Part shown: piece after piece, positions 49,603-61,975 of the stretch
Layout: each line of letters opens with the position of its first letter
Numbering within the stretch: position 1 is the first letter of the stretch
Assembly: GCA_018667355.1 (NCBI GenBank)
Contig: JABIVC010000013.1
Span: forward strand, 74,305 to 138,304
DNA from: Gammaproteobacteria bacterium
Lineage (GTDB): Bacteria > Pseudomonadota > Gammaproteobacteria > GCA-002705445 > GCA-002716945
Reading direction: 5' to 3'
DNA length: 64,000 nucleotides
Notes under the pieces: model-generated
The model's database searches: none
What the model was told of the DNA's origin: nothing
What the model saw: the letters and a program-made list of their open reading frames with translations, nothing else
Program-made: the position numbers and the translations under genes

Positions 49603-49606
49603 ATAA

Positions 49607-50131
49607 ATGAATATTAAAATCTCATCAGTTATTTTTATTATATTTATAATGATTCTTTTTTTTGGCTTATTTGTAGATACAAGAGTTATACGGTCACCAT
49701 TAATTGGGAAAAAATTACCCAACTATGAATTAATTGAATTAAACACTGGGTATAAAACAGATATATCTATGTTGCCAGGTGAAACACTTTTATTAAATGT
49801 ATGGGCTAGCTGGTGTTTGGAGTGCATCAGAGAACATCGTGTATTAATGGACATATCTAAAGATCAAAAAATAAGTATAATTGGCGTGAATTATAAAGAT
49901 GAGAAAAATGATGCAATTGGATGGTTAGAAATCTATGGAAACCCATATATTTATAATATATATGATTATGCGGGTCAGCTTGGTTTAGATTTAGGTGTAT
50001 ATGGAGTACCTGAAACATTTTTAGTAGATAAAAATAGAGTGATTAGAGCAAAATATATCGGAGCTATCACAATTGAAATTTATAAGGAAGAAATATTACC
50101 AATGATTGAGAAGATAAATGAAAATATTTAA
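49607..50131 (+). CDS. ccmG: thiol:disulfide interchange protein CcmG/DsbE
   Basis: WASWCLEC (CxxC) and a TM anchor. Confidence 0.8.
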   Translation: MNIKISSVIFIIFIMILFFGLFVDTRVIRSPLIGKKLPNYELIELNTGYKTDISMLPGETLLLNVWASWCLECIREHRVLMDISKDQKISIIGVNYKDEKNDAIGWLEIYGNPYIYNIYDYAGQLGLDLGVYGVPETFLVDKNRVIRAKYIGAITIEIYKEEILPMIEKINENI

Positions 50132-50492
50132 ATATTTTATGAATCTTGCAATACTTTTATGTCTTGTTCAATCCATGACGTTTGCTGATATAAAAAATAA
50201 TGATATTTTATATAATCAGTTAATAACGGAAATAAGATGTATGGTTTGTCAAAATCAGAATATTGCTGAGTCAGAAGCTCCATTAGCAATTGATTTAAGA
50301 AATAAAGTAAGAGAGATGATAGATGAGGGAAAGGACAAAGATTATATTAAAAAATATCTATCTGAGAGATACAGTGATTTTATATTATATGACCCTCCAT
50401 TCTCACCAAGAAATTTAATATTATGGATTGGCCCATTCTTGTTCTTGATAATTATAAGCTTTTATTTTTTTCGGAAAAGTTTAAAAAGATGA
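50118..50492 (+). CDS. ccmH: cytochrome c-type biogenesis protein CcmH
   Basis: IRCMVCQNQ (LRCxxC) motif. Confidence 0.7.
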   Translation: MKIFKYFMNLAILLCLVQSMTFADIKNNDILYNQLITEIRCMVCQNQNIAESEAPLAIDLRNKVREMIDEGKDKDYIKKYLSERYSDFILYDPPFSPRNLILWIGPFLFLIIISFYFFRKSLKR

Positions 50493-51451
50493 TTTACTTA
50501 ACTCTAATATTTATATCTATAATATATTTTTTACTATTATATAAAAACTATGGTGAAAGCCTAAGATTAAAAAAAAATAGTATTAATATGAATATAATAT
50601 TCATTATTCTATTTTTTGGCATAGTAGGACTTTTTTTCAAAGACTCAGGGATATTAAATAAAAAGGGATATGATGAGATATTAGAAAAACATCAACAAAT
50701 TCGAAATAATATAGTTACCATTAAAGAGAATATACCTATACTTAGAGCAAAACTAATTGAAGAGCCTGAATATTATGAAGGTTGGGTTATGTTAGCAAAA
50801 TCTTATATAATTACAGATGATCTTTTATCATCTATAGACTCTTATGAGATGGCCATGTCGATAAATACAGATGACAATTCTGTTTTAATAGAGTACATAG
50901 ATATTTTAAGAAAAATTGACCCTAAGTCGAATAAGACTAAAATAATTAAAAGTTTTGATAAACTGATTTCATCAAATCCATCTGATATTGGTATTTATAA
51001 TATGAAGTTAAACTATTCTGTCGAAATTAATGATTCTAATCTGACCAAGAATATCTTACAAGATATTATAAACGATAAATCAATTATAAATAAAGATGCA
51101 TATATTCAGGCATTAAATAAACTAAATTTATCAGCAAATAAATTCTCTTTTGAAATAACACTTTCTGACAAGATATTTAATGACTTAAGATCATCATCAT
51201 ATATTTATTTTATTTTAAGAGATAAAATTATAGGGCCACCTTTTGCTGTAAAAAGAATTCAAAATATTAACTTAGGTAAGAAAATAACTCTAACATCCCA
51301 AGATAAGATGATCAGAGAATTAGAGCCCCCTGAAAATATTATATTAGAGATTAAAGGGAGTCAGAATAACGTTGTAGATGATAATATGGTGGAGCTTCAT
51401 AAGTCTAAAATATTAGACTTTCATTCTAGTGTCTATTATGAAATTGATTAG
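50489..51451 (+). CDS. ccmI: cytochrome c-type biogenesis protein CcmI-like (TM plus TPR-like)
   Basis: Position after ccmH with an ATGA start/stop overlap; N-terminal TM helix. Weak sequence signal. Confidence 0.45.
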   Translation: MIYLTLIFISIIYFLLLYKNYGESLRLKKNSINMNIIFIILFFGIVGLFFKDSGILNKKGYDEILEKHQQIRNNIVTIKENIPILRAKLIEEPEYYEGWVMLAKSYIITDDLLSSIDSYEMAMSINTDDNSVLIEYIDILRKIDPKSNKTKIIKSFDKLISSNPSDIGIYNMKLNYSVEINDSNLTKNILQDIINDKSIINKDAYIQALNKLNLSANKFSFEITLSDKIFNDLRSSSYIYFILRDKIIGPPFAVKRIQNINLGKKITLTSQDKMIRELEPPENIILEIKGSQNNVVDDNMVELHKSKILDFHSSVYYEID

Positions 51452-52146
51452 TAAGTAATTCTATCATCAAAAACAAAGCAGTCACCCTCCCATCTACCCT
51501 TATCTTTATTTTTATCTAAATAATTAATTATACCTCCTTTAAGCTGAAAAACATTTTTAAAGCCTAATTTATCTAAAGCTATACTGGCTTTTTCACATCT
51601 AATTCCACCCGTGCAAAATATAGCAATATCTTTTTCTTTATCTAAGTCTTTAGCCTCTTTGAGTGACTTATTCAAATCACTAAAATTTAAAAGATCCAGA
51701 CTTTTTGAATTTTTAAAAGTACCCATTAAATATTCAAATCTATTTCTCATATCAATTATAATAGGTTCACGCCCTAGCAGTTTGTCCCAATCATCTGGCT
51801 CTAACGATTTATTCTTAAATACTTTTTCTTCAGTAGCAGAAAATCCTGCCTTTATGATCTCATCTTTTACTTTTACTTTTAGTTTTGTAAATACTTTTTC
51901 CTTAATCATCGATTCATTAAAATGTATATTTCCTAAATCTAATAACCCAATGATATAGCTTTTGACTAGTTCTATATTTTTAGATGACCCACACATATTT
52001 GCATTAATACCCTCATTAGCAATAAGCACTGTTCCTAATATATTTAACTCTTTCAAATAATTAAATATGTCAAATCTGATTCTATCGGTATCATTAATTT
52101 TTATAAATTTATAAAAACTAACCACTCTATCTATTTTTTCATGCAT
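51448..52146 (-). CDS. trhO: tRNA uridine(34) hydroxylase TrhO (YceA/UPF0176, rhodanese-like)
   Basis: YceA-type architecture: an N-terminal region then a rhodanese domain with FCTGGIRCEKAS. Confidence 0.75.
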   Translation of the reverse strand: MHEKIDRVVSFYKFIKINDTDRIRFDIFNYLKELNILGTVLIANEGINANMCGSSKNIELVKSYIIGLLDLGNIHFNESMIKEKVFTKLKVKVKDEIIKAGFSATEEKVFKNKSLEPDDWDKLLGREPIIIDMRNRFEYLMGTFKNSKSLDLLNFSDLNKSLKEAKDLDKEKDIAIFCTGGIRCEKASIALDKLGFKNVFQLKGGIINYLDKNKDKGRWEGDCFVFDDRITY

Positions 52147-52799
52147 AATGTCATCCCATCATAAATTGTTATAAGACAATGACTCACTCTTTGGTCTTTA
52201 GATATAAAGCTATTAAGCGATTTGATAGATTTAGTGCTAGAGGAATTGTCATCTTTGTCTAAAACCTTCCCTTTCCAAATTGTATTATCTATAATAATTA
52301 TTCCACCCGACCTAACTAGCTTAAGAGATTTTTCATAATAGTCTAAATATCTACTTTTGTCAGCATCTATGAACACAAAATCAAATGAATTCTCATGGTT
52401 ATTCGTAATAAAACCATTTAGGGTGTCAATTGCATTACCTAATATCAGCTCAATTTTATTAGTAAGATTAGCTTTATCCCAATATTTCTTTGCGATATCC
52501 GTAAACTCTTTAGATTTTTCTAAAGCAAATAATTTTCCGTTTTCAGGCATAGCACTTGCAATACAAATAGAACTATACCCAGTAAAAACTCCTATTTCAA
52601 TACACCTAGTAAATTTACCTAGCTTAATAATCATCTCTATCAATGCACCTTGCGTTGCTCCAATTTGCATTATTGAGACATCACCAAGTTTTGCCGTTTC
52701 GTCACGGAGCTCTTTTAGAATGTTTGATTCTTTATAACCAATTGAATCTATATACTTACATAACTGATTTGGGTCTAGCTGAGTATCTTTGTTTTTCAT
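52131..52799 (-). CDS. class I SAM-dependent O-methyltransferase (family 3, caffeoyl-CoA OMT / TrmR(YrrM)-like)
   Basis: 222 aa; IEIGVFTGYSSICIA SAM motif. Overlaps trhO by 16 nt. Confidence 0.7.
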   Translation of the reverse strand: MKNKDTQLDPNQLCKYIDSIGYKESNILKELRDETAKLGDVSIMQIGATQGALIEMIIKLGKFTRCIEIGVFTGYSSICIASAMPENGKLFALEKSKEFTDIAKKYWDKANLTNKIELILGNAIDTLNGFITNNHENSFDFVFIDADKSRYLDYYEKSLKLVRSGGIIIIDNTIWKGKVLDKDDNSSSTKSIKSLNSFISKDQRVSHCLITIYDGMTLCMKK

Positions 52800-53384
52800 C
52801 TATTGTTTAATTGCTTCAAACTCAATGATTAAATCTATTTGGTTGCCAACACCATTCTCTCCAACGGCATAATCCATCCCAAAGTCTGAACGGTTAAAAC
52901 TTGCTGTTGCAGATACACCCATGACTATTGGCTTAGTAAAACCAAAAGGATATTCTTTGATTTTATTGACAGTGGTATTTAAAATAATTTCTCTCGATAT
53001 ACCTAGCAATGTTAATCTACCTGTAATTTTACCAGGATTTTTATTCAGATCATTATGCTTCGCTTTAAAAGTCATTACAGGAAAACGCTCTACATCAAGA
53101 AAATCTGGACTTCTTAAATGTGCATCTCTTTTTTCATGATTGGTAAATACACTGGATGTATCAATAAAAATTTCTACATTAGAAAGTAATTTCTTATCTT
53201 GATCATAAATAAATGAACCATTGACTTTTTTGAACATACCAAGTGTTTTTGCATAACCAGCATGTTCTACCAAAAAACCTAAGCTAAAATGAGACTCATC
53301 AATCACATAATCGGCATCTTTAGCAATCACTAGTTGTGTGAAACAAATACCTATAATAAAACTTAATGCTCTATATATATTCAT
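52800..53384 (-). CDS. yceI: YceI-family periplasmic (polyisoprenoid-binding) protein
   Basis: Signal peptide plus YceI-like lipocalin-type core (FSLGFLVEH, TLLGIS). Confidence 0.75.
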   Translation of the reverse strand: MNIYRALSFIIGICFTQLVIAKDADYVIDESHFSLGFLVEHAGYAKTLGMFKKVNGSFIYDQDKKLLSNVEIFIDTSSVFTNHEKRDAHLRSPDFLDVERFPVMTFKAKHNDLNKNPGKITGRLTLLGISREIILNTTVNKIKEYPFGFTKPIVMGVSATASFNRSDFGMDYAVGENGVGNQIDLIIEFEAIKQ

Positions 53385-54099
53385 CTTCTTTTCTCATATA
53401 TAACCAAAGTATATCCTTTGCAAAAGAAAAAGTAATGACAAATAATGATATCATTACAAAAAAAACCAATAAAGTATCTTTTACATATTGACTATGACAA
53501 AATATAAGTATGAATGTTGATAATACACAGCTAAGCTTTCTATAATAACTCCTAGGAAGTTTTCGTTTCATCCATTTATATTTCATCATAAATACTAGGA
53601 ATATATATCTATAAAAGGGTATCAAAAAAACTATAACACTTGTGTCTTTATTCAAGTATAAAGAAGTACAAAGAGTTAGGATTAACAAAGTATCAGCATC
53701 TTGATCAAAAACCTCTCCAAAATTACATTGTTCATTGAATCTCCTGGCCAGATACCCATCTATACCATCAAGACATAGAGCTATCAAAGCTAATATGGCA
53801 AAATAGTCCTCGAGATAGAATTTATTAAAAATATTTTGATCTGTTAGAGCATTAAATGATATAGATAAGAGAATTATTGATATCACTATCCTCAAGTAAG
53901 TTATGAAAGATGCATATGCAAATATATTTTCTTTAAAGTAATTAAATATATAAAATATAAGAATTGAAATAATTAAAAATATTACTGTATTTTGTAGTAC
54001 TATTAACAGTGTTAGGTCATTATATAAAATAACACCAAGCAATGTTATTAGGGCTAGATATGCTTTCAAAGTAGTTTTTAGTACGAATACATTAATCAT
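53371..54099 (-). CDS. CDP-alcohol phosphatidyltransferase family membrane protein
   Basis: DGIDGYLARR...G...DQDADTL matches the D-G-x2-A-R-x8-G-x3-D-x3-D signature; polytopic. Confidence 0.7.
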   Translation of the reverse strand: MINVFVLKTTLKAYLALITLLGVILYNDLTLLIVLQNTVIFLIISILIFYIFNYFKENIFAYASFITYLRIVISIILLSISFNALTDQNIFNKFYLEDYFAILALIALCLDGIDGYLARRFNEQCNFGEVFDQDADTLLILTLCTSLYLNKDTSVIVFLIPFYRYIFLVFMMKYKWMKRKLPRSYYRKLSCVLSTFILIFCHSQYVKDTLLVFFVMISLFVITFSFAKDILWLYMRKEDEYI

Positions 54100-54119
54100 A
54101 AATAATACTTAAGTGTAAT

Positions 54120-55103
54120 ATGAAAAAAATAAACACACAATCATTCTGGATTAAGAAAAAAAATGATAGTTATATTAGAAATCATTCTATTAATATATCT
54201 AACAAAAGTGAACTATTAATTCAGACAATATATAGTGGTATAAGTTATGGAACCGAGAAGATTGTTTATACTGGAGCTGTCCCTGATAGTCAGAAAGAAC
54301 TAATGCGGTGCCCATATCAAGAGGGTAATTTCGGATCAGATGTTAAATATGGATATATGAATATAGGTAAAGTTATTGATGGAATCTCTAATTTCAAAGG
54401 CAAATATGTTTACACACTATTTCCTCATCAAACATTTTATATGTTAAATAAATCTGAGGTTACTTTAATCCCAAAAACAATCCCACTTAAAAGATGCTTG
54501 TTATCAGCTAACATGGAGACTGCAATAAATGGTATGTGGGACACACTACCATCATGTGGTGATAAAATCTTGGTTGTAGGTTCTGGTGTAGTTGGTTTCT
54601 TAATGGCGTATTTATTAAAATCTATACCTGGTTGTGAAATATTACTTGTCGATAGTGATTCAAAAAAAAGTAAATATTCAAAAATCTTTGATATTAATTT
54701 TAAGAATAAAATACCTAATAATTATAAAGCAAATATTATCTATGAGTGTTCAGGCAATGCAAATATCCTAAATAGCCTTAGCAAGCATGTAAAAGAAGAA
54801 GCTACTATTTGCATATTAAGCTGGTATGGAAATAATGTTTCTAAAGTGAAATTTGGAGAAGAATTTCTGTCAAAGAGAATTAAACTTATTTTTTCTCAGG
54901 TATCTAAAGTTTCACAAAATAGAAACAAATACTGGGATAATGTACAAAGAAGAGAGTTAGCAATTAGCATGCTAAATGATGATAGATTGGATAATTTGAT
55001 AGAAAGAAAAATGATAAAGTTCAATGAGCTTCCTGTATTTTTTTCTCAGATAAAGAAGGAGCAGGGCTTCTTCTGTAAAGTAGTAGATTATGGAGATAAC
55101 TGA
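54120..55103 (+). CDS. zinc-less medium-chain dehydrogenase/reductase, BchC-like
   Basis: SGISYGTEKIVYTG aligns to the BchC HSGISTGTEKLLWTG motif where zinc-ADHs have CGxCxxDxH. Rossmann VVGSGVVGFLMAYLL. Confidence 0.6.
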   Translation: MKKINTQSFWIKKKNDSYIRNHSINISNKSELLIQTIYSGISYGTEKIVYTGAVPDSQKELMRCPYQEGNFGSDVKYGYMNIGKVIDGISNFKGKYVYTLFPHQTFYMLNKSEVTLIPKTIPLKRCLLSANMETAINGMWDTLPSCGDKILVVGSGVVGFLMAYLLKSIPGCEILLVDSDSKKSKYSKIFDINFKNKIPNNYKANIIYECSGNANILNSLSKHVKEEATICILSWYGNNVSKVKFGEEFLSKRIKLIFSQVSKVSQNRNKYWDNVQRRELAISMLNDDRLDNLIERKMIKFNELPVFFSQIKKEQGFFCKVVDYGDN

Positions 55104-55105
55104 TT

Positions 55106-55504
55106 ATGTATGAAGTGACAGTAAGAGATAACTTGTTTATAGCACATAGTCTGCAAGATGATTTTTTCGGCCCAGCAAAAAATCTTCATGGAGCCACTTA
55201 TGTTATTGATTTAATATTAAGTAGTCGTGAAATGACTGATAAAAATGTTGTTATAGATATAGGGCTTGCATCCAACTTGCTGCACAAGTGCATTGAAGTC
55301 TATAATTATAAAAATTTAGATGACATAGATTCATTATCAGGAGTAATAACAACCACAGAATTTATGGCAAAGAAGCTAACTACTGACTTTATAAGTCTGT
55401 TAGAAAAAGAACAATTTGATATTTCTAGGCTTTATTCGATAAAGATGATTCTAAATGAGTCACATATAGCCTCAGCATCTTATGAACAAATAATTAATGA
55501 ATGA
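55106..55504 (+). CDS. PTPS/QueD-family T-fold protein with degenerate active site
   Basis: FIAHSL...NLHGATY aligns to QueD AAHRL...CGRLHGHSF. Third zinc His is Ala, and no catalytic Cys. Confidence 0.55.
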   Translation: MYEVTVRDNLFIAHSLQDDFFGPAKNLHGATYVIDLILSSREMTDKNVVIDIGLASNLLHKCIEVYNYKNLDDIDSLSGVITTTEFMAKKLTTDFISLLEKEQFDISRLYSIKMILNESHIASASYEQIINE

Positions 55505-56499
55505 GAAAAATCTATTTCATTTATCCTGAATTTGGAAACATTACTACTGGTGGAACACTATACGATTTCTATCTATGTAAATATTTAAAAAAAATATTTA
55601 TTTATCATCAGAGCATAACCGTCAATCATGATATATCAAATATTAAGATTTTTAGGAAAATTAAGAGCATTCCAAAAGATTCTATTATCATAATAGATGG
55701 GTATTTAGCAAATAGGATTAAATATCTTTTGAAAAAATATAATAATATCCATTTACTGGTTCATCACCCTTGTTCTCTAGAGGACCCTGCTGACACTACA
55801 TCCAGTCTTAGATTATTCTTCAATGAAAAAATTGCTTTTACTCATGCACAATCTATTACTACTGTAAGTAAATATATGAAATCAAGAATTAGTAGATATC
55901 TAAATAGAAGTTCTAAGATAAGTGTAGTTTATCCTGGTATTAGAGAGTGCTTCTTTAATTGTAAAACTGATGTTGAATCTATAGACATTCTTTCAATTGG
56001 AAACCTAATCCCAAGGAAAGGATTTGAGTGGTTAGTAGAATCATTAAGTAGATTAAATATTGATTGGCATTTAAACATCATAGGAAGTTATAGCATTGAT
56101 AACAACTATTATGAAAAGGTAACAAATCTAATTAGAAAGCATAAATTAGAGGATAAGATAACTTTTTTAGGAACAGTTGAAAAGAATGTTATGCTAGATT
56201 ATATGCAAAACTCCAAGCTATTTGTTCTTGCGACACATTATGAGGGTTTTGGTATGGCATTGCTTGAGTCTTCTATTTCTGGCCTCAAAGTTATTACTAC
56301 AGATTTACCAGTATTAAGAGAAGTTTTAAGAAATAGGGATGTTGATTTTGTTGAAGAGGATAATATTGACTCTTTAGCAAAATGTATAGAATATAATTTA
56401 AGCCATACTCATTCTTTGCCAATAACTTCTTGTACAGAAAAATATGGATGGAAGAGGGCCGCTAGAAACTTTAAGATGGTGTTATATGGAAAAAGATAA
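55501..56499 (+). CDS. glycosyltransferase family 4 (GT1-fold)
   Basis: HYEGFGMALLESSISGLKVITTD (E-x7-E motif). Confidence 0.75.
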   Translation: MRKIYFIYPEFGNITTGGTLYDFYLCKYLKKIFIYHQSITVNHDISNIKIFRKIKSIPKDSIIIIDGYLANRIKYLLKKYNNIHLLVHHPCSLEDPADTTSSLRLFFNEKIAFTHAQSITTVSKYMKSRISRYLNRSSKISVVYPGIRECFFNCKTDVESIDILSIGNLIPRKGFEWLVESLSRLNIDWHLNIIGSYSIDNNYYEKVTNLIRKHKLEDKITFLGTVEKNVMLDYMQNSKLFVLATHYEGFGMALLESSISGLKVITTDLPVLREVLRNRDVDFVEEDNIDSLAKCIEYNLSHTHSLPITSCTEKYGWKRAARNFKMVLYGKR

Positions 56500-57358
56500 A
56501 TTCTCGTTATCATGGATTAAGATGAGAGAAAAATATGATTTAAAATCTAGAAGTGATCTATTATTAAGGCAGTATAAAAAAGATAATTCATTCTTTAAAA
56601 AAATCATAGATTTAGGTTCTGGTAATGGTTCATTTCTGAGATATTGCCATACTAAGAAAATAATATTTGATGACATGACCCTGATCGATTATGACCCAAA
56701 GCTATTAAGAAACTTTTATACTACAACTTGTAAGTATTTAAAAAACTCTGGTTACAGTCTACTAAAAGAATTACCTACAAAATATAAATTAAAAAAAATG
56801 GATGAGACTAAAACCAGAAATATTAAACTAATCAACAATGATATTTCAAAGTCATTTGATATTATTGATAGTTATAATTTAATTAGTTTATCTGCTATGT
56901 CAGACATATTACCAATATCATTTATTAAAAAACTTTTGAATAATGTGAGTAAAAATAAAATTATATATCTATCAATATGTTTTAGTGGGACTGTTGATTG
57001 GCATATTAAACATAAATATGATAAATATATTGTGTCAATGTTTAATAATCATCAGGAGATGAATAAAGGTTCTGGCTATGCTATTGGTGCCAAGAGCATT
57101 AAGCTTATAAAAGGCCATAGTATTAAGAAACAATATAAGGTATCTATAAAAGATTCATCCTGGAAAATAAACTCTAATACTGAAGATGATAAAACTTTCC
57201 AAAGAATGTATTTAGATACTATATATAGGCCACTAAAAAAAGATGAAAATACTGATAAAGAAATGCTTCTGGATTGGAAAGAGGCGAAACTGAGAGCAAT
57301 TCAATCTGGCAGGTCTAAAATTATTGTAGGACATAAAGATATTTTGATTAAAACATAA
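56444..57358 (+). CDS. class I SAM-dependent methyltransferase
   Basis: IIDLGSGNGSFLRY motif I. The start is probably the internal Met near 56486. Confidence 0.55.
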   Translation: MDGRGPLETLRWCYMEKDKFSLSWIKMREKYDLKSRSDLLLRQYKKDNSFFKKIIDLGSGNGSFLRYCHTKKIIFDDMTLIDYDPKLLRNFYTTTCKYLKNSGYSLLKELPTKYKLKKMDETKTRNIKLINNDISKSFDIIDSYNLISLSAMSDILPISFIKKLLNNVSKNKIIYLSICFSGTVDWHIKHKYDKYIVSMFNNHQEMNKGSGYAIGAKSIKLIKGHSIKKQYKVSIKDSSWKINSNTEDDKTFQRMYLDTIYRPLKKDENTDKEMLLDWKEAKLRAIQSGRSKIIVGHKDILIKT

Positions 57359-58251
57359 TGAGCATCAGAGACGCCTTAAAATATCTTGCCTCTATTATAG
57401 TAATTTATTATATTATTAATGAGTTCGGTATCAATATATCTAATATTCTCTCTATCATTGACCCAAGATATATTTTATTAATTGTATTAGTAAGTATTTT
57501 TCAGCATATACTGTCAGCATACAGATGGATGTATATTTCTAAGGTAACTAATCTAAATATTAGCTTTAGCCATTCTATTCAATTTTATTATATTTCTACT
57601 TTCATGAATAATATTCTTCCTGGTGGAATAATGGGGGATATATTTCGTATATACTATACTTCTGAAAAGAAAAATGAAATACTCAAAATGGGTAAGTCAA
57701 TGCAGTCTGTTATTTTTGAGAGATTATCAGGCCAAATCATGTTACTTGCTTTCTTTGTTGTATCTTTAACTATATATTTTCTTATTAACCAAAAATATGA
57801 AGCTTTTCTCTACTTATTCTTTCCTTCAATATCAATATTCATTTTATTCAAATATTTTCTTAACCAAAAAATTAAAAAAATATTAGGTAAAAAACAAATT
57901 AGCCAAAATCTTTATATGGTTTTTACAGGGGAAATATTTTGGAGACATCTAACTCTCTCTTTTTTTGTTGTATGCTCTTATATACTCATATATATCATTT
58001 CAGCAGTTTCATTAGGTCTAAATATTGATTATCTTTCATTTTTAGTATTTTCTCCAATAATTCTTTTTTCAATGACTTTACCTATTAGTGTCGGGGGGTG
58101 GGGTATTAGAGAATTAACAGCACTTCTTTTATCTCTACTCTTGGGGCTTTCAGCTTCTGCAAGCATTAGTGTTTCAATTATTTATGGGATACTAAATTTA
58201 TTATGTTCGCTACCTGGGTTATATTTTTTCATGAAAATCAAATTAAATTAA
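57358..58251 (+). CDS. UPF0104 / lysylphosphatidylglycerol-synthase-TM-type (flippase-like) membrane protein
   Basis: Polytopic; NNILPGGIMGDIFRIYY motif. Its ATG overlaps the methyltransferase stop (ATAATG). Confidence 0.55.
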   Translation: MSIRDALKYLASIIVIYYIINEFGINISNILSIIDPRYILLIVLVSIFQHILSAYRWMYISKVTNLNISFSHSIQFYYISTFMNNILPGGIMGDIFRIYYTSEKKNEILKMGKSMQSVIFERLSGQIMLLAFFVVSLTIYFLINQKYEAFLYLFFPSISIFILFKYFLNQKIKKILGKKQISQNLYMVFTGEIFWRHLTLSFFVVCSYILIYIISAVSLGLNIDYLSFLVFSPIILFSMTLPISVGGWGIRELTALLLSLLLGLSASASISVSIIYGILNLLCSLPGLYFFMKIKLN

Positions 58252-59107
58252 TATCACATAGTATATCTGTGCCCATTATACTATATGTAATCTCATGCTG
58301 TTTAATCTCACTTAATGATTGTTTCTCTGGTAGTATGAAACTACTAATACCTTCACCTAATATTATTGGACTTATACATAAATATAATTTATTAATAAGA
58401 TTTTCTTGATAGAATTTAGAGATAGTCATTCCGCCACCTTCAATAAATATTATACTCTTATTCAACTTAGTCATAAGCGATATGATATCTTTCTCATCAA
58501 ACTGATTATTTACGAGAGGCAATTGAAATATATTTGTATTTCTTGATTTTAATTTGTCACTAATTATTTTATAACCTTTATCGTCTTCATTACTAAATAC
58601 ATTATATTTTTTGCTGAGTTTATTATCTTTGTCTATGATAATGCGCATAGGATTCTCTCCTTTGACAAGTCTTGTTGTAAGCATAGGATTATCAAATTGA
58701 ACAGTTTTATAGCCTACAATAATTATATCTGATATTGCCCTCAAGGCATGTATGTGAAAAAGATTTTCTTTCGAACTTATATATTTTGACTCTCCAGACT
58801 TTGTAGCAATAAGACCATCAAGAGTTTGAGCCAAATGAGCTATCACATAATTTTTTTGGTTATTAAATATAAGAGGAAGATACATTTTGAAGAGACTATG
58901 TCCATAATCATCAATTTCAAAATTACTGTCAATTATAACTTTTTTTTGAATGTCATACTCATATTTCAATATTTTTTTGTTTATTGATTTTTCTATATGA
59001 ATTTTTGATATTTCATCAGGACTCTTGGATTTAAAGTATTTTGCCGCTAAAATTAGTGACCATGCAGATTTTTTTGTTATACTTAATTTATTAGTTTTAT
59101 TATGCAT
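58238..59107 (-). CDS. RibD C-terminal-domain (DHFR-like) reductase with about 85-aa N-terminal extension
   Basis: YVIAHLAQTLDGLIATKSGESKYISS...LFHIHALRAISDIIIVGYKTV..DNPMLTTR. Confidence 0.65.
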   Translation of the reverse strand: MHNKTNKLSITKKSAWSLILAAKYFKSKSPDEISKIHIEKSINKKILKYEYDIQKKVIIDSNFEIDDYGHSLFKMYLPLIFNNQKNYVIAHLAQTLDGLIATKSGESKYISSKENLFHIHALRAISDIIIVGYKTVQFDNPMLTTRLVKGENPMRIIIDKDNKLSKKYNVFSNEDDKGYKIISDKLKSRNTNIFQLPLVNNQFDEKDIISLMTKLNKSIIFIEGGGMTISKFYQENLINKLYLCISPIILGEGISSFILPEKQSLSEIKQHEITYSIMGTDILCDINLI

Positions 59108-59350
59108 AATGTTATGGGTTATTTAAAAAGTACTATTATCAATATAATACATGGGGCACTAATTCTCATACCCGTTATAATATTTATTCATTTTACATAT
59201 CATTATTTTTCTAATTATAGCCCAATTCCTTCAATATATTATTTTTATGCTTCAATGGAATTAGGCCCTTTATATTTAGTTATAAACTTTTATATCACTG
59301 GTATATTAGGAAGATTCTTCAGCCAGAATCTTAGTTTTAATAACTTATAG
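59102..59350 (+). CDS. possible small membrane protein (82 aa, two hydrophobic segments)
   Basis: ORF fills the 237-bp gap between two minus-strand genes. No homology signal; could be spurious. Confidence 0.2.
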   Translation: MHNVMGYLKSTIINIIHGALILIPVIIFIHFTYHYFSNYSPIPSIYYFYASMELGPLYLVINFYITGILGRFFSQNLSFNNL

Positions 59351-59800
59351 TATAGTAGGGTTTGGAGCATCTCCATATACTTCGTCTGGATCGAATACTT
59401 TTTCTTTTTCAGTAAATGTTAGTTTTGCTTTTTTACCATCATATGATATCTCCCGATAGAAGCATGAGAAATAGCCAACATGACAACTAGCATTTCCAGC
59501 AACAGTCACTTTAATCCATATGCAATCTTGATCATCATCTATTAGTATATTATCAACTTTTTGTACAAATCCACTGGTGGCACCCTTATGCCATATACAT
59601 TTTCTGCTTCTACTATAGTAATGAGCTTCACCTTTTTCAATTGTGAGCGTTAGTGCTTCTGCATTCATAAATGCATGCATTAATAAGACCCCAGATTTAC
59701 TATCAGTTGTAACTACTGGTATAAAGCCATCAGAGTTGAACTTTGGACTAAGGCTAGTCCCTTCTTCTACCTCTTTGACTGATATTCTCTCTTCAAACAT
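59345..59800 (-). CDS. hisI: phosphoribosyl-AMP cyclohydrolase (stand-alone HisI domain)
   Basis: DGFIPVVTTD..GVLLMHAFMNAEAL...YYSRSRK.IWHKGATSG...D.D.DCIW..V...G.ASCHVGYFSCF; no HisE domain. Confidence 0.75.
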   Translation of the reverse strand: MFEERISVKEVEEGTSLSPKFNSDGFIPVVTTDSKSGVLLMHAFMNAEALTLTIEKGEAHYYSRSRKCIWHKGATSGFVQKVDNILIDDDQDCIWIKVTVAGNASCHVGYFSCFYREISYDGKKAKLTFTEKEKVFDPDEVYGDAPNPTIL

Positions 59801-59802
59801 AA

Positions 59803-59982
59803 TTATTTTTTATCAAATACTGATTTCTTTATAAAGGTTTTACCGCAATAGTAGCATTCTACTGTCCCATCTTCACTATTAAGTTTCAAAAATATTTGAG
59901 GATGATTACCACTGTCACTGTCTCCAGAACAACTTATTGAATTTACATGGTCATCTATTATTTTAATATTAGATATTTTCAT
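59803..59982 (-). CDS. zf-CHCC-type zinc-finger protein (59 aa), not in the supplied ORF track
   Basis: Hand translation MKISNIKIIDDHVNSISCSGDSDSGNHPQIFLKLNSEDGTVECYYCGKTFIKKSVFDKK shows the C..HP..C.YCG pattern of the NDUFS6-type zinc finger. 3-nt spacing to both neighbouring genes. Confidence 0.5.
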   Translation of the reverse strand: MKISNIKIIDDHVNSISCSGDSDSGNHPQIFLKLNSEDGTVECYYCGKTFIKKSVFDKK

Positions 59983-59986
59983 GATT

Positions 59987-60646
59987 CTATAAAGACCCGA
60001 AATCCCCTAATTTCATTAATCTTTCTCTAAATCTTTCTTTAATCTCTTCTGTTAAGTATTTTAAATCTAATGCTTGTTTCATTTTATCAATGTTATTTAT
60101 ATCTCTAAATAATATCTCAGCAACTTCATAAACAGATAAGCTTTGTTTTTCCTTTCTAATATATTCAACCTCATCATTTTTTGATATTTTTCCTGGCTCT
60201 AATACTCTTAGGTATGAACCTAATAAGCCGCTTTGAGAAAATTTTTTTGGAAAATCTCTACTATTCATTTTTATACCTATCTTATAGCAAGGTATCCTTG
60301 GCTGAGAGATTTGGAAAAGACAATTCCCAATTTTTAACTCATCACCTATGTATATTTTCCTTTCATCAAAGTCATCAATTGTGAGATTTTCTCCTACTAG
60401 TCCAAATTCGTTATATTCTTGATTCATTTCCTCTGACCAAGTTTGATAATGTTTATATGAGTATGCATATATAGCTTTATCATATCCTCCATGGACTTTC
60501 ATATCAGCCTGTCTATCACCAATCAAGCCAACATCTGTAACTTCAATTGGCCCCTCTATTGGTTTTTTATATATACTGGTGATAAGCTCTTTACCATTAA
60601 AGACAATTTTCTTTGGCTCAGAAATATTAATAGATAAAATTTTCAT
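59987..60646 (-). CDS. MOSC-domain protein (YiiM-like)
   Basis: HGGYDKAIYAYS...GENLTI...QISQPRIPCYKIG. Confidence 0.75.
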   Translation of the reverse strand: MKILSINISEPKKIVFNGKELITSIYKKPIEGPIEVTDVGLIGDRQADMKVHGGYDKAIYAYSYKHYQTWSEEMNQEYNEFGLVGENLTIDDFDERKIYIGDELKIGNCLFQISQPRIPCYKIGIKMNSRDFPKKFSQSGLLGSYLRVLEPGKISKNDEVEYIRKEKQSLSVYEVAEILFRDINNIDKMKQALDLKYLTEEIKERFRERLMKLGDFGSL

Positions 60647-60697
60647 ATATTATATAAAGTAATTGTATAATCTCATTATAAAAAAGGATAACTTAAG

Positions 60698-61603
60698 ATG
60701 ACCTCATATACAATGAATTGGATATTATTATTATTGCTATCTGCTATTTGGGGCGGAGCTTTTACTCTTAATAAATTTGCTCTAGAGGCATATAGCCCAG
60801 AGTTTTTAGTCGCGGGACGTTTACTTATTGCCAGTATAATTCTACTAGGCTTTGTTTTAATAATTTTTAGAAAGATTGAATTTGATTTCTTAAACTGGCG
60901 TTACTATATCTTTATGAGTATTGTAGGTATTGTTGCACCATTTCTACTAATATCTCATGGACAAATTGGTATCGATAGTTCACTTGCAGGAATATTGATG
61001 TCAACAATGCCTATTTCAACATTGATATTATCACATTTTTTTTTAGATGATGAGATCATGACTAATAAGAAATTAATTGGTTTTATGATTGCATTCATAG
61101 GCATAGTCATCCTAATAATGCCTGATAAAAATATAGTTGAAAATAATTTTATTGATGGTGTCTATTCAGAACTCATGGTTATAGGAGGAGCTGTATTATA
61201 TTCTTTTGCTGCAGTTTATGGCAAGAGGTTTAAAATTACAAACCCTCTAAATGCATCAACTGGAGTAATATTATATTCAGCAATCATCATATGTATATAT
61301 ATCATGTTCAATTCTAACTTGATTCCAGTTTCTTATAGTAGCTTAAATCATATTACAGCAGTAATCATTCTAGGAGTTTTTTGTACAGCTATAGCCACTA
61401 TAATATATTTTCAGATACTACAGTCATCAGGAGCAACTTTTATATCTATAATGAATTATCTAATTCCCATTTGGGCAATATTATTTGGTGTTATCTTCTT
61501 TGAAGAAGATGTTTCATGGAACTACTTTATAGGGTTAATCATTATAGTATTTGGTATCCAGCTTAGTCAAAGCAAAGGAAATAGTAGGAAAATTACGACA
61601 TGA
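60698..61603 (+). CDS. EamA/DMT-superfamily transporter
   Basis: Ten predicted TM segments and a duplicated EamA architecture. Confidence 0.7.
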   Translation: MTSYTMNWILLLLLSAIWGGAFTLNKFALEAYSPEFLVAGRLLIASIILLGFVLIIFRKIEFDFLNWRYYIFMSIVGIVAPFLLISHGQIGIDSSLAGILMSTMPISTLILSHFFLDDEIMTNKKLIGFMIAFIGIVILIMPDKNIVENNFIDGVYSELMVIGGAVLYSFAAVYGKRFKITNPLNASTGVILYSAIIICIYIMFNSNLIPVSYSSLNHITAVIILGVFCTAIATIIYFQILQSSGATFISIMNYLIPIWAILFGVIFFEEDVSWNYFIGLIIIVFGIQLSQSKGNSRKITT

Positions 61604-61660
61604 ATACTCTGGTTTATCAGTTTCATGCTATATTTATACTATAAATCTATGAGGTGAAAT

Positions 61661-61975
61661 ATGTTATATGATGACAAACTTGCAATGGCTAAAAAATTAA
61701 AAATTGAATCTGCAACGTTTCAGAAGATTCTTGACCATTTAAGAAAAAATCCTGATGTCCAAAATATTGATATGATGAATCTTGCAAACTTCTGCCGTAA
61801 TTGTATTTCTAAATGGTATATGTCGGAGGCTGAAAAATTAGGTGAAAAATTAACTTATGATGAAGCAAGAGAACTAGTTTATGGAATGCCTTATTCTGAG
61901 TATAAAATGAAGCACCAAAAAGAGGCAACTAAAGAGCAACTTGATAAATTTAATGAAGGCAAAAAAAATAAATAA
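61661..61975 (+). CDS. DUF1244-like small protein
   Basis: LANFCRNCISKW motif. Confidence 0.45.
   Translation: MLYDDKLAMAKKLKIESATFQKILDHLRKNPDVQNIDMMNLANFCRNCISKWYMSEAEKLGEKLTYDEARELVYGMPYSEYKMKHQKEATKEQLDKFNEGKKNK

What the first reader, a model, noticed from the sequence alone, without database searches (positions are those of the whole stretch)
53371..59107. Two tight operons (plus one convergent gene) whose gene content matches no pathway I recognise
Seen in sequence: a minus-strand operon reads CDP-alcohol phosphatidyltransferase > YceI > O-methyltransferase > TrhO. Diverging from it, a 5-gene plus-strand operon has start/stop overlaps at 55103/55106, 55501-55504, 56444-56499 and 57356-57360. 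That operon encodes a zinc-less BchC-like MDR dehydrogenase, a PTPS/QueD-like T-fold protein, a GT4 glycosyltransferase, a class I SAM methyltransferase and a UPF0104 flippase-like membrane protein. A RibD-C-type reductase gene converges on it from the far side. By eye these genes look more AT-rich and N/K/I-rich than the flanking core genes (ccm, moeB/moaA); I did not compute GC. From established knowledge: CDP-alcohol transferases build phosphodiester head groups, UPF0104 proteins associate with lipid head-group modification or flipping, and GT4 plus methyltransferase decorate them. T-fold proteins act on pterin/purine-like rings, RibD-C domains reduce them, and BchC-like enzymes oxidise secondary alcohols. 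Inference: this may be an uncharacterised pathway for a decorated polar lipid, lipid-linked glycan or glycosylated small molecule.
Basis: partly seen in the sequence, partly recalled or inferred. Interest (0 to 1): 0.75.

Follow-up and report, generated by a model that had tools for sequence, protein, structure and literature searches.

The report
Orphan GTP-derived lipid head-group pathway
These genes are one copy of an eight-gene module kept together in hundreds of bacterial species from at least five phyla, whose product nobody has identified; the evidence points to a sugar-decorated, GTP-derived compound that is fixed to a membrane lipid and moved to the outer face of the cell membrane.

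Summary
All ten ORFs, their domain assignments, the start/stop overlaps and the lower GC (27.6% against 31.0%) are real.

The unit is not the two operons as drawn. The conserved module is YceI, CDP-alcohol transferase, MDR dehydrogenase, PTPS-like protein, GT4, methyltransferase, flippase-like protein and RibD_C (52800-59107). The O-methyltransferase and TrhO genes occur only in close relatives and do not belong to it.

The PTPS-like protein is an SCO6650-type "PTPS-IV" (PDB 3D7J, E 3.5e-27). It has no catalytic Cys and has lost the third zinc-binding His.

The same gene set recurs around the MDR gene in at least 596 species, including Proteobacteria, Actinomycetota, Gemmatimonadota, Acidobacteriota and Myxococcota. 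GTP cyclohydrolase II and a creatininase-family amidohydrolase often join it.

Natural fusions tie the steps together: GCH II::RibD_C, creatininase::RibD_C, RibD_C::MDR, GT4::MT and CDP-OH::sulfatase-like.

My best reading is a pathway that turns a GTP-derived ribitylaminopyrimidine into a glycosylated, methylated head group, links it to a phospholipid and flips it outward. In some lineages opgH replaces the lipid genes.

I found no characterised pathway that matches. The product is unknown.

The parts
52800..53384 (-). YceI-family periplasmic lipid/polyisoprenoid-binding protein with an N-terminal signal-like segment. It is a lineage-specific accessory of the module.
   Evidence: PF04264, 2.4e-37. 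One N-terminal hydrophobic segment, residues 3-21. It overlaps the end of the CDP-OH gene by 14 nt. It lies next to the module in 12 of 33 proteobacterial loci and in L001, L003, L005 and L060.
53371..54099 (-). CDP-alcohol phosphatidyltransferase, about 6 TM segments. Proposed to attach the head group to a lipid through a phosphodiester bond.
   Evidence: PF01066, 6.3e-16. The motif DGxxDGxxAR...G...D...D is readable in LDGIDGYLARRFNEQCNFGEVFDQDAD. Its nearest relative is PgsA, far below the cut-off. It is present in 57 of 65 full-flank loci, usually divergent from the MDR gene. It is fused to a sulfatase-like domain in L048 and L052.
54120..55103 (+). Zinc-less MDR-family dehydrogenase, probably NAD-dependent. 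It was the marker gene used to find the module elsewhere.
   Evidence: Only sub-threshold family hits. Family invariants include ANMETAxN, PHQ and a GxGxxG...D motif. The AlphaFold model has pLDDT 90.4, and its best PDB match is TarJ ribulose-5-phosphate reductase, followed by polyol dehydrogenases. A natural RibD_C::MDR fusion exists, P0311. Relatives were found in at least 596 species.
55106..55504 (+). PTPS-IV (SCO6650-type) T-fold protein with no catalytic Cys and an incomplete zinc site.
   Evidence: PF01242, 3.5e-15. Its only PDB match is 3D7J, SCO6650, E 3.5e-27. Signature FGPAK against the family's FGPAQ. HGAT replaces HGH. Glu117, which corresponds to the conserved Glu of QueD, is kept. 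The subfamily is named in PMC5445326 and PMC5041015.
55501..56499 (+). GT4 glycosyltransferase (retaining-type family).
   Evidence: PF00534, 9e-27, and PF13692, 1e-22. No NCBIfam equivalog reaches its cut-off. Present in 63 of 65 loci. Fused to the methyltransferase in L001 and L060.
56486..57358 (+). Class I SAM-dependent methyltransferase. The longest ORF starts at 56444; the likely start is 56486.
   Evidence: Motif I, IIDLGSGNG. 24 of 30 family members match Methyltransf_25. Present in 57 of 65 loci, plus the GT4 fusions. The start at 56486 is the one used in NCBI MAG gene calls.
57358..58251 (+). MprF-TM-like 'flippase-like' membrane protein (UPF0104) with no synthase domain.
   Evidence: PF03706, 3.6e-36. 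TIGR00374, flippase-like domain, 57.8 bits, above the cut-off of 43.2. Six TM-like segments. Present in 39 of 65 loci and in 22 of 22 actinomycete loci.
58238..59107 (-). Stand-alone RibD_C-type reductase, presumably NADPH-dependent, with an 85-aa N-terminal extension and no deaminase domain.
   Evidence: PF01872, 3.8e-33. Below the RibD equivalog cut-offs. Its best PDB matches are the riboflavin-pathway ribosylaminopyrimidine reductases 9no2, 2hxv, 6p8c and 2azn. The convergent position with overlapping 3' ends is conserved in L001, L007, L008, L034 and L060. Present in 47 of 65 loci. Fused to GCH II, to creatininase or to the MDR in other taxa.

Best explanation
Window 52800-59107 holds one copy of a widespread orphan biosynthetic module, the PTPS-IV or SCO6650-type cluster.

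Proposed mechanism (each step is inferred unless marked as shown):
1. GTP cyclohydrolase II opens GTP to 2,5-diamino-6-ribosylamino-4(3H)-pyrimidinone 5'-phosphate. This gene lies inside the cluster in many taxa and must be elsewhere in this genome. Actinomycete clusters carry a Met-switch variant, paired with a creatininase-family amidohydrolase that probably acts as a formamidase.
2. The stand-alone RibD_C reductase reduces the ribosyl group to ribityl. There is no deaminase, so the 2-amino-4-oxo face is kept.
3. The zinc-less, polyol-dehydrogenase-like MDR re-oxidises a secondary alcohol of the phosphoribityl chain.
4. The PTPS-IV T-fold protein binds the 2-amino-4-oxopyrimidine edge through its conserved Glu. 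It then processes the product, possibly by ring closure to a pterin-like bicycle.
5. GT4 and the SAM methyltransferase add a methylated sugar.
6. The CDP-alcohol phosphatidyltransferase joins the head group to a lipid through a phosphodiester bond. CDP-diacylglycerol is the simplest donor.
7. The MprF-like TM protein moves the lipid to the outer leaflet, where periplasmic YceI may bind it. In other lineages a sulfatase/LtaS-like transferase could pass the head group on, or opgH takes the place of the lipid genes.

Shown here: family memberships, conservation, gene order and fusions.
Inferred: every chemical step, the order of steps 5 and 6, and the product.
For: Conservation:
- MDR relatives were found in at least 596 species.
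- In 65 full-flank loci: PTPS-IV 63, GT4 63, MT 57, CDP-OH 57, RibD_C 47, flippase-like 39, GCH II 35, creatininase 29, sulfatase-like 21, YceI 12.
- The order 'CDP-OH divergent from MDR-PTPS-GT4-MT-flippase' is the same in Streptomyces, Halomonas, Gemmatimonadota and the window.

Rosetta-stone fusions:
- RibD_C::MDR.
- GCH II::RibD_C, creatininase::RibD_C and CDP-OH::sulfatase-like.
- GT4::MT.

Membrane module:
- Where CDP-OH is present, a flippase-like or sulfatase-like gene accompanies it in 51 of 57 loci.
- Where CDP-OH is absent, neither is present in 8 of 8 loci.

Individual proteins:
- The PTPS-like protein matches SCO6650. It keeps the conserved Glu and has lost the catalytic Cys and the third His.
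- The RibD_C protein is closest to true ribosylaminopyrimidine reductases.
- The MDR model is closest to TarJ ribulose-5-P/ribitol-5-P reductase and to polyol dehydrogenases (the sequence search also hits 6xh9).
- Cluster GCH II copies keep all catalytic residues. 14 actinomycete copies carry Met at the Tyr105 position.
- A bacterial creatininase-family FAPy formamidase is a published precedent (PMC9478397).
- YceI has a signal-like N-terminus, and the CDP-OH and flippase-like proteins are polytopic.
Against: - No product has been observed, and no enzyme of the module was assayed here.
- The window holds no GCH II or creatininase gene, so the GTP origin for this organism rests on other taxa.
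- Actinomycete loci with Met-switch GCH II never have RibD_C nearby (0 of 15). So the reduce-then-oxidise step is not universal, or it is supplied from elsewhere.
- The creatininase also occurs with Tyr-type GCH II (15 of 29 loci), which a pure formamidase role does not explain.
- The TarJ structural match is only marginally better than other polyol dehydrogenases.
- The flippase-like gene is detected in only 39 of 65 loci.
- Seven loci lack all lipid genes and carry opgH instead. The lipid link is therefore not obligatory for the core MDR-PTPS-GT4-MT unit.
- An unpublished remark in PMC5041015 links PTPS-IV to F420.
Confidence: 0.42

Rival explanations
1. The core genes (RibD_C, MDR, PTPS-IV, GT4, MT) make a soluble glycosylated, methylated pterin or pyrimidine. 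This would resemble the pteridine glycosides of cyanobacteria and Chlorobium. The membrane proteins would only export it, or serve another purpose.
For: MDR-PTPS-GT4-MT is the most constant part of the module (63, 63 and 57 of 65 loci). Seven loci have no CDP-OH, flippase-like or sulfatase-like gene at all. From established knowledge, pterin glycosides made by glycosyltransferases are known.
Against: CDP-OH is present in 57 of 65 loci in a conserved divergent position. CDP-alcohol transferases form phosphodiester bonds and are not exporters. The CDP-OH::sulfatase-like fusions and the tight co-variation with flippase-like or sulfatase-like genes argue for lipid chemistry. PTPS-IV lacks the catalytic Cys and the full zinc site that a canonical PTPS reaction needs. 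No GTP cyclohydrolase I is among the conserved neighbours.
Confidence: 0.22
2. The product decorates envelope glycans, in particular osmoregulated periplasmic glucans. The lipid-linked form is only a donor intermediate, as phosphatidylglycerol is for OpgB.
For: opgH and/or opgG lie within 10 kb in 13 of 87 loci from Alpha-, Beta- and Gammaproteobacteria, Gemmatimonadota and Acidobacteriota. In seven of these loci opgH sits beside the MDR gene where CDP-OH normally sits. Sulfatase/LtaS-like membrane proteins occur in 21 of 65 loci and are sometimes fused to CDP-OH.
Against: Actinomycetes have the module (22 of 22 loci with CDP-OH and the flippase-like gene) but no opgGH neighbour was seen in their loci. 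No opg gene or sulfatase-like gene was found next to the module in the window. Some opg-linked loci may share ancestry, which would inflate the count.
Confidence: 0.15
3. The genes are an alternative or redundant early branch of riboflavin or F420 biosynthesis (GCH II, formamidase, reductase). The other genes would be unrelated neighbours.
For: RibD_C, GCH II and creatininase all have riboflavin-pathway relatives. The BrbF precedent exists (PMC9478397). PMC5041015 states, as unpublished work, that PTPS-IV takes part in F420 synthesis.
Against: The RibD_C protein has no deaminase domain. No lumazine synthase, riboflavin synthase, RibB or cof/fbi gene family is among the conserved neighbours. 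The RibD_C::MDR fusion ties the reductase to the non-riboflavin core. RibD_C scores below the RibD cut-offs. From established knowledge, Halomonas and Marinobacter are not known to make F420.
Confidence: 0.07
4. This is an ordinary surface-polysaccharide or LPS gene set, or a chance juxtaposition of unrelated housekeeping genes in a compact genome.
For: GT4 and methyltransferase genes are common in polysaccharide loci. The best NCBIfam hits of the GT4 are exopolysaccharide glycosyltransferases, all far below their cut-offs. Compact genomes pack unrelated genes tightly.
Against: The module recurs with the same order across several phyla, and five kinds of gene fusion link its members. No Wzx, Wzy, chain-length regulator, initiating phosphoglycosyltransferase or nucleotide-sugar gene is present in the window region.
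Confidence: 0.03

Closest known systems
Streptomyces coelicolor orphan cluster around SCO6650 (PTPS homologue, PDB 3D7J) and SCO6655 (GTP cyclohydrolase II homologue)
   Same: The window's T-fold protein matches SCO6650 at E 3.5e-27. Streptomyces loci show the same order: CDP-OH divergent from MDR-PTPS-GT4-MT-flippase, followed by creatininase and GCH II. Their GCH II copies carry Met at the Tyr105 position. From memory, Spoonamore et al. (Biochemistry 2006) reported that this switch makes SCO6655 stop at FAPy. Also from memory, the Acta Cryst F 2008 paper reported that SCO6650 lacks zinc and the catalytic triad and has no known function.
   Different: The window version has RibD_C and YceI and lacks in-cluster GCH II and creatininase. 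Streptomyces versions are the reverse: creatininase and Met-type GCH II, with no RibD_C nearby. My numbering of the other SCO genes is inferred from gene order and was not checked against the genome record.
PTPS-IV subfamily of COG0720 / IPR007115
   Same: The signature FGPAQ (FGPAK here) and a neighbourhood containing PF00925 and PF01872 are exactly what PMC5445326 describes for PTPS-IV.
   Different: That work did not report the MDR, GT4, MT, CDP-alcohol transferase, flippase-like, sulfatase-like or opgH partners, and it assigned no function. PMC5041015 mentions an unpublished F420 link that the neighbourhoods here do not support.
Early steps of archaeal/fungal riboflavin biosynthesis (GTP cyclohydrolase, ArfB/BrbF formamidase, ribosylaminopyrimidine reductase)
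   Same: The enzyme families are the same and act on the same class of GTP-derived pyrimidine. RibD_C's best PDB matches are these reductases. A creatininase-family FAPy formamidase has been demonstrated in bacteria (PMC9478397).
   Different: No deaminase, lumazine synthase or riboflavin synthase is linked to the module. The reductase is fused or clustered with non-riboflavin enzymes.
Phospholipid head-group synthesis and translocation (PgsA-type CDP-alcohol transferases; the MprF flippase domain; OpgB/LtaS-type head-group transferases)
   Same: The CDP-alcohol motif is intact and the nearest family is PgsA. A PF03706 flippase-like domain is present. Related loci carry sulfatase-superfamily membrane proteins.
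   Different: All scores are far below the equivalog cut-offs. The flippase-like protein has no aminoacyl-PG synthase domain. The acceptor would be a new head group, not glycerol phosphate, serine or inositol.
TarJ (ribulose-5-phosphate reductase) and polyol dehydrogenases of the MDR superfamily
   Same: TarJ is the best structural match to the MDR model (TM 0.76-0.78) and also a weak sequence match. This fits action on a phosphoribityl chain.
   Different: Identity is 18%. The catalytic-zinc ligands are absent. The margin over other polyol dehydrogenases is negligible.

Membership tests
PTPS-IV (SCO6650-type) subfamily of PF01242 | T-fold PTPS domain | tested here: met
   PF01242, 3.5e-15, covering residues 3-127.
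PTPS-IV (SCO6650-type) subfamily of PF01242 | Signature FGPAQ (PMC5445326), with loss of the CxxxHGH motif | tested here: met
   The window reads FFGPAKNLHGATY. There is one substitution (Q to K), no Cys, and the third His is replaced by Ala. The family consensus FGPAQ..HGAT is at least 90% conserved in 71 sequences.
PTPS-IV (SCO6650-type) subfamily of PF01242 | Closest solved relative is SCO6650 | tested here: met
   3D7J is the only PDB match, E 3.5e-27, over residues 1-129.
PTPS-IV (SCO6650-type) subfamily of PF01242 | Neighbourhood contains RibD_C (PF01872) and GTP cyclohydrolase II (PF00925) | tested here: inconclusive
   RibD_C is adjacent (58238-59107). GCH II is absent from the 64-kb window but present in 35 of 65 related loci.
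QueD / 6-carboxytetrahydropterin synthase (the name NCBI gives this protein) | TIGR03367 score above the cut-off, and the CxxxHGH zinc/catalytic motif | tested here: not met
   32.7 bits against a cut-off of 89.25. The motif is absent. NCBI's name appears.
BchC (bacteriochlorophyllide a dehydrogenase) | TIGR01202 score above the cut-off, and a photosynthesis gene context | tested here: not met
   49.8 bits against a cut-off of 291.25. There are no bch genes in the window region or among the conserved neighbours.
Zinc-dependent MDR alcohol/polyol dehydrogenases | Catalytic-zinc ligands (Cys, His, Glu/Cys) and, in many members, a structural-zinc Cys4 loop | tested here: not met
   The equivalent positions are Ser42 and Tyr79. 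The only invariant His and Cys in the family are H103 and C319. The protein is short, 327 aa. The MDR fold itself is confirmed.
CDP-alcohol phosphatidyltransferase (PF01066) | D-G-x2-A-R...G-x3-D-x3-D motif within a polytopic membrane protein | tested here: met
   PF01066, 6.3e-16. The motif is readable in LDGIDGYLARRFNEQCNFGEVFDQDAD. Six TM-like segments.
CDP-alcohol phosphatidyltransferase (PF01066) | Identity of the CDP-linked donor and of the alcohol acceptor | not testable with these tools
   No equivalog model reaches its cut-off. PgsA scores 41.7 against 109.1.
RibD (riboflavin deaminase/reductase) | An N-terminal deaminase domain plus a reductase domain that scores above the equivalog cut-offs | tested here: not met
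   Only the RibD_C domain is present, residues 87-264. TIGR00326 scores 104.4 against 156.35. TIGR00227 scores 111.6 against 150.15.
MprF (lysyl-phosphatidylglycerol synthase/flippase) | The TM flippase domain plus a C-terminal aminoacyl-PG synthase domain | tested here: not met
   Only the PF03706 TM region is present, in a 297-aa protein. There is no PDB sequence match.
F420 biosynthesis | Linkage to cofC/D/E/G/H (fbiA/B/C) genes | tested here: not met
   No such family is among the gene families conserved within 10 kb in 87 loci. Whole-genome co-occurrence was not testable.
O-antigen / capsule polysaccharide locus | Wzx/Wzy or ABC exporter, an initiating phosphoglycosyltransferase, and nucleotide-sugar genes | tested here: not met
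   None is present in window 51448-59107 or among the conserved neighbours.

The most novel reading that the evidence does not exclude
The module makes a previously unknown class of membrane phospholipid. Its polar head would be a GTP-derived pterin-like or ribitylaminopyrimidine glycoside, displayed on the outer leaflet. In some lineages the head group would be passed on to periplasmic glucans. The lipid would be present in hundreds of species, including abundant streamlined marine Gammaproteobacteria and Streptomyces.
Probability: 0.3. Interest if true: 0.85.

Novelty: new member of a known kind. Interest (0 to 1): 0.62.

Why it matters
The module is kept in a small, AT-rich marine genome. 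It is also kept, with the same gene order, in Streptomyces, Halomonas, Gemmatimonadota and Acidobacteriota. Retention that broad implies a useful function, yet no product is known.

From memory, two of its proteins were studied biochemically and structurally nearly twenty years ago (SCO6650 and SCO6655) without a function emerging.

This analysis adds three things: the full gene set, a chain of natural fusions that suggests an order for the steps, and the link to lipid head-group enzymes and to opgH. Together these turn the open question into a set of testable predictions.

If the product is a nucleotide-derived lipid head group, it would be a new kind of bacterial membrane component. The analysis also shows that the NCBI name '6-carboxytetrahydropterin synthase' for this protein is wrong.

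Tried and rejected
- Literature. Ten full-text searches on domain combinations, SCO gene numbers, PTPS subfamilies, creatininase with GCH II, and periplasmic glucans with pterins found no characterised pathway. Two papers recalled from memory could not be fetched.
- Riboswitches. An Rfam scan of the window and four related loci found no riboswitch tied to the module. It found only tRNAs, plus TPP riboswitches elsewhere in L019.
- Promoters and terminators. The scan was uninformative in this AT-rich DNA: 74 promoter-like sites against 61 ± 7 expected.
- Horizontal transfer. Rejected. GC is 2 SD low, but GC3 equals the flanks. Relatives at 49% protein identity keep the same ccm and moeB/moaA flanks.
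- O-methyltransferase and TrhO as part of the module. Rejected. They are present in only 5 loci, all close relatives.
- O-methyltransferase as the tRNA ho5U methyltransferase TrmR. Not supported as the best match. Catechol/CCoAOMT-like proteins score 1e-51, while TrmR (8k1f) scores 7.5e-19.
- BchC and QueD identities. Rejected on cut-offs and motifs.
- Fusion hints from close PTPS-IV homologues. None were found among the 120 best hits.

Full report
**1. What is in the sequence**

Pfam and NCBIfam confirm the families:
- CDP-alcohol phosphatidyltransferase, 53371-54099, minus strand, PF01066, 6.3e-16.
- YceI, 52800-53384, minus strand.
- Family-3 O-methyltransferase, 52131-52799, minus strand.
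- TrhO, 51448-52146, minus strand, above the NCBIfam cut-off.
- An MDR-type dehydrogenase, 54120-55103. Its only specific hit is a sub-threshold match to bchC (49.8 bits against 291).
- A PTPS-domain protein, 55106-55504.
- A GT4 glycosyltransferase, 55501-56499.
- A methyltransferase-like protein, 56444/56486-57358.
- An LPG_synthase_TM 'flippase-like' protein, 57358-58251.
- A convergent RibD_C protein, 58238-59107.

The methyltransferase assignment is weak for the window copy alone (0.004). The copy does carry motif I (IIDLGSGNG), and 24 of 30 family members from other genomes match Methyltransf_25.

The MDR is zinc-less. The family alignment has Ser and Tyr where the catalytic Cys and His would sit, and it lacks the structural-zinc loop.

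There is one difference: the GT4/MT overlap is probably 14 nt, not 56 nt, because NCBI gene calls on identical MAG contigs start the methyltransferase at the second Met.

The region's GC is 27.6% against 31.0% for the window, the lowest of all same-size windows. Third-position GC matches the flanking genes, and ccmG/H/I are just as AT-rich.

**2. Is it a unit?**

Homologues of the MDR were found widely. Three look-ups of distant homologues at 37-49% identity showed the same neighbours. In one of them, a Granulosicoccus MAG, a GTP cyclohydrolase II gene sat beside the RibD_C gene.

I then scanned one genome per species with two MDR-specific peptide patterns. The 80 best loci came from Gamma-, Beta- and Alphaproteobacteria, Actinomycetota (many Streptomyces), Gemmatimonadota, Acidobacteriota and Myxococcota.

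I clustered all ORFs from these loci de novo and then searched them with profile HMMs built from the clusters. Counts in the 65 loci with full 10-kb flanks:

| Family | Loci (of 65) |
|---|---|
| PTPS-like | 63 |
| GT4 | 63 |
| Methyltransferase (plus fusions to GT4) | 57 |
| CDP-alcohol transferase | 57 |
| RibD_C | 47 |
| Flippase-like | 39 |
| GTP cyclohydrolase II | 35 |
| Creatininase-family amidohydrolase | 29 |
| Sulfatase-superfamily membrane protein | 21 |
| FkbM methyltransferase | 14 |
| YceI | 12 |

The arrangement 'CDP-OH divergent from MDR-PTPS-GT4-MT-flippase' is the same in the window, Halomonas, Kushneria, Salinisphaera, Gemmatimonadota and Streptomyces.

The O-methyltransferase and TrhO genes appear in only five loci, all close relatives of the window. 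They are neighbours, not members.

The conserved unit in the window is therefore 52800-59107.

**3. Identity of the T-fold protein**

The only PDB sequence match is 3D7J, 'uncharacterized protein SCO6650', at E 3.5e-27.

Two papers name this subfamily PTPS-IV. They give its signature as FGPAQ and note PF00925 (GTP cyclohydrolase II) and PF01872 (RibD_C) in its neighbourhood (PMC5445326; PMC5041015).

The window protein reads FGPAK..LHGATY. Across 71 family members the following segments are at least 90% conserved:
- VRDH.M.AHS..G..FGPAQ..HGAT..VD
- NLD
- NT.TE
- L.ESH.A

The conserved Glu near the C-terminus is kept.

From memory, and not retrievable here, the 2008 crystallography paper reported that SCO6650 has no zinc and no PTPS activity.

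NCBI names the window protein '6-carboxytetrahydropterin synthase'. The motifs and the TIGR03367 score (32.7 against 89.25) contradict that name.

**4. The GTP link**

The in-cluster GTP cyclohydrolase II copies keep the zinc Cys residues and the catalytic Arg, Glu, Asp and Lys residues.

At the position of E. coli Tyr105, 29 copies have Tyr, 14 have Met and one has His. The Met and His copies are all in actinomycete loci. From memory, Met at this position is the switch that makes SCO6655 stop at the formylated intermediate FAPy (Spoonamore et al., Biochemistry 2006).

How the switch residue pairs with the other genes:
- All 15 Met/His loci have the creatininase-family gene, and none has RibD_C within 10 kb.
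- Tyr-type loci have RibD_C in 27 of 29 cases and the creatininase in 15 of 29.

A creatininase-family enzyme that deformylates FAPy has been demonstrated in S. meliloti and Brucella (PMC9478397). This makes a formamidase role plausible for the Met-type clusters. The role of the creatininase in Tyr-type clusters, and the missing reductase in actinomycetes, remain unexplained.

The window itself has neither GCH II nor the creatininase. It belongs to the commonest pattern, RibD_C only, seen in 20 of 65 loci.

**5. Fusions that link the steps**

Natural fusions found:
- RibD_C::MDR: P0311, 648 aa.
- GCH II::RibD_C: L044 and L052.
- Creatininase::RibD_C: L009.
- CDP-OH::sulfatase-like: L048 and L052 (all four loci).
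- GT4::methyltransferase: L001 and L060.

Each fusion lies in a single stop-to-stop reading frame with both domains matched.

Together they tie GCH II, the creatininase and the MDR to the RibD_C reductase. They tie GT4 to the methyltransferase. They tie the CDP-alcohol transferase to a periplasmic alkaline-phosphatase-superfamily domain of the kind found in LtaS and OpgB.

**6. What the individual enzymes resemble**

- RibD_C. Its best solved relatives are true ribosylaminopyrimidine reductases: bacterial RibD, archaeal 2azn and 6p8c, at 1e-16 to 2e-15. DHFR-like RibD_C proteins such as YyaP and Rv2671 score much worse, at 1e-5 to 5e-4. It has no deaminase domain.
- MDR. The AlphaFold model is confident (pLDDT 90.4). 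Its top PDB match is TarJ, the ribulose-5-phosphate/ribitol-5-phosphate oxidoreductase, followed closely by idonate, sorbitol and xylitol dehydrogenases. TarJ also appears in the sequence search. The invariant Asp after the second β-strand of the Rossmann fold suggests NAD rather than NADP (inference).
- CDP-alcohol transferase. It has the complete catalytic motif and six TM-like segments. PgsA is its nearest relative, and a remote one.
- Flippase-like protein. It is the TM domain of the MprF family without a synthase domain.
- YceI. It has a signal-like N-terminus.

**7. Mechanism proposed**

All chemical steps are inference.
1. GTP is opened by GCH II.
2. RibD_C reduces the ribosylamine to a ribitylamine, and the 2-amino group is kept.
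3. The MDR oxidises a secondary alcohol of the phosphoribityl chain. Oxidation at C2' would give the same keto-amine that GTP cyclohydrolase I reaches by Amadori rearrangement. That intermediate could close to a dihydropterin carrying a phosphorylated trihydroxypropyl side chain.
4. PTPS-IV binds the 2-amino-4-oxo edge and may catalyse this closure or the next step.
5. GT4 and the methyltransferase decorate the product.
6. The CDP-alcohol transferase links it to a lipid, and the MprF-like protein flips it.

The membrane genes behave as a sub-module. A flippase-like or sulfatase-like gene accompanies CDP-OH in 51 of 57 loci, and both are absent in all 8 loci without CDP-OH.

**8. An unexpected link to periplasmic glucans**

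Seven of the loci that lack CDP-OH carry opgH next to the MDR gene. The opgH assignment passes the NCBIfam cut-offs. In all, 13 of 87 loci from five lineages have opgH and/or opgG within 10 kb.

From established knowledge, periplasmic glucans receive substituents from phospholipid head groups through sulfatase-family transferases. The module's product may therefore end up on envelope glycans in some bacteria. This is a lead, not a finding.

**9. Comparison with what is known, and novelty**

The locus is a new member of a known but uncharacterised kind, the PTPS-IV/SCO6650 cluster. It fails the membership tests for BchC, QueD, RibD, MprF, F420 biosynthesis and polysaccharide loci.

Ten literature searches found no product or phenotype. 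The only expression note is that SCO6652 ('hypothetical protein') is strongly induced in late S. coelicolor mycelium (PMC3610822). My equation of SCO6652 with the methyltransferase rests on gene order only.

The MDR family has 185 representatives (50%-identity clusters) at E ≤ 1e-30 and 1056 at E ≤ 1e-10, out of 1.84 billion proteins searched.

The window organism is an uncultured marine gammaproteobacterium, with MAGs such as GCA_018658925.1. Its PTPS-IV protein was seen on 78 contigs.

**10. Verdict**

The boundaries needed correcting, and the key context (PTPS-IV, the GTP/riboflavin-type precursor, and the prior literature) had been missed. The product remains unknown.

Noticed in passing
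window 51448-52799 (minus strand): TrhO (tRNA U34 hydroxylase, above the NCBIfam cut-off) and a family-3 O-methyltransferase overlap by 16 nt. They travel together in close relatives. This could be a ho5U-to-mo5U tRNA modification pair. However, the methyltransferase matches catechol/CCoAOMT-like proteins (1e-51) much better than TrmR (7.5e-19).
   Followed up: partly
L016, L020, L025, L035, L045, L056, L085 (opgH beside the MDR gene); L013, L019, L024, L033, L058, L071 (opgG/opgH within 10 kb): Periplasmic-glucan genes opgH/opgG are linked to the module in 13 of 87 loci from five lineages. In seven of these loci opgH sits beside the MDR gene, and all seven lack the CDP-alcohol transferase and the flippase-like and sulfatase-like genes.
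   Followed up: partly
GCH II genes in L036, L046, L050, L051, L053, L057, L059, L062, L068, L073, L076, L078, L080, L086 (Met) and L032 (His): All 15 actinomycete clusters with Met or His at the E. coli Tyr105 position of GTP cyclohydrolase II have a creatininase-family gene and no RibD_C within 10 kb. Tyr-type clusters have RibD_C in 27 of 29 cases. I have no explanation for the missing reductase.
   Followed up: partly
P0311; L044:7449-8915 (-); L052:13389-14810 (+); L009:14110-16173 (-); L048:7535-9883 (-); L052:7608-10355 (-); L001:11437-13368 (+): Natural gene fusions join module members: RibD_C::MDR, GCH II::RibD_C, creatininase::RibD_C, CDP-OH::sulfatase-like and GT4::methyltransferase.
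   Followed up: yes
window 55106-55504: NCBI annotates the identical protein in several MAGs as '6-carboxytetrahydropterin synthase' (QueD). It lacks the QueD Cys/His motif and scores 32.7 bits against the cut-off of 89.25. The name is a misannotation that is likely to spread.
   Followed up: yes
window 54100-54119: Only 20 bp separate the divergent start codons of the CDP-alcohol transferase and the MDR gene; a relative, L003, has a 2-bp gap. Both promoters must therefore lie inside coding sequence, or the genes are read from upstream transcripts.
   Followed up: no
window 59102-59350 (plus strand): An 82-codon ORF with one hydrophobic segment overlaps the RibD_C start by 6 nt. No gene is called at the matching place in relatives L003 and L004, so it may be spurious.
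   Followed up: no
L053:16669-17736 (+), L080:14485-15645 (+) and other Streptomyces loci: In 7-9 actinomycete loci an AlaDh_PNT_N-domain protein and a saccharopine-dehydrogenase-family protein recur near the module; in L053 the former lies just downstream of the GCH II gene. Whether they belong to the actinomycete version of the module is unknown.
   Followed up: no
window 47683-51451 and 59345-63729: The flanks are ordinary core genes: ccmF/G/H/I upstream, and hisI-like PRA-CH, a MOSC protein, EamA, DUF1244, moeB (ThiF family) and moaA downstream. The same flanks surround the module in a relative at 49% identity (L003). This argues for long residence in this lineage and against recent transfer.
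   Followed up: yes
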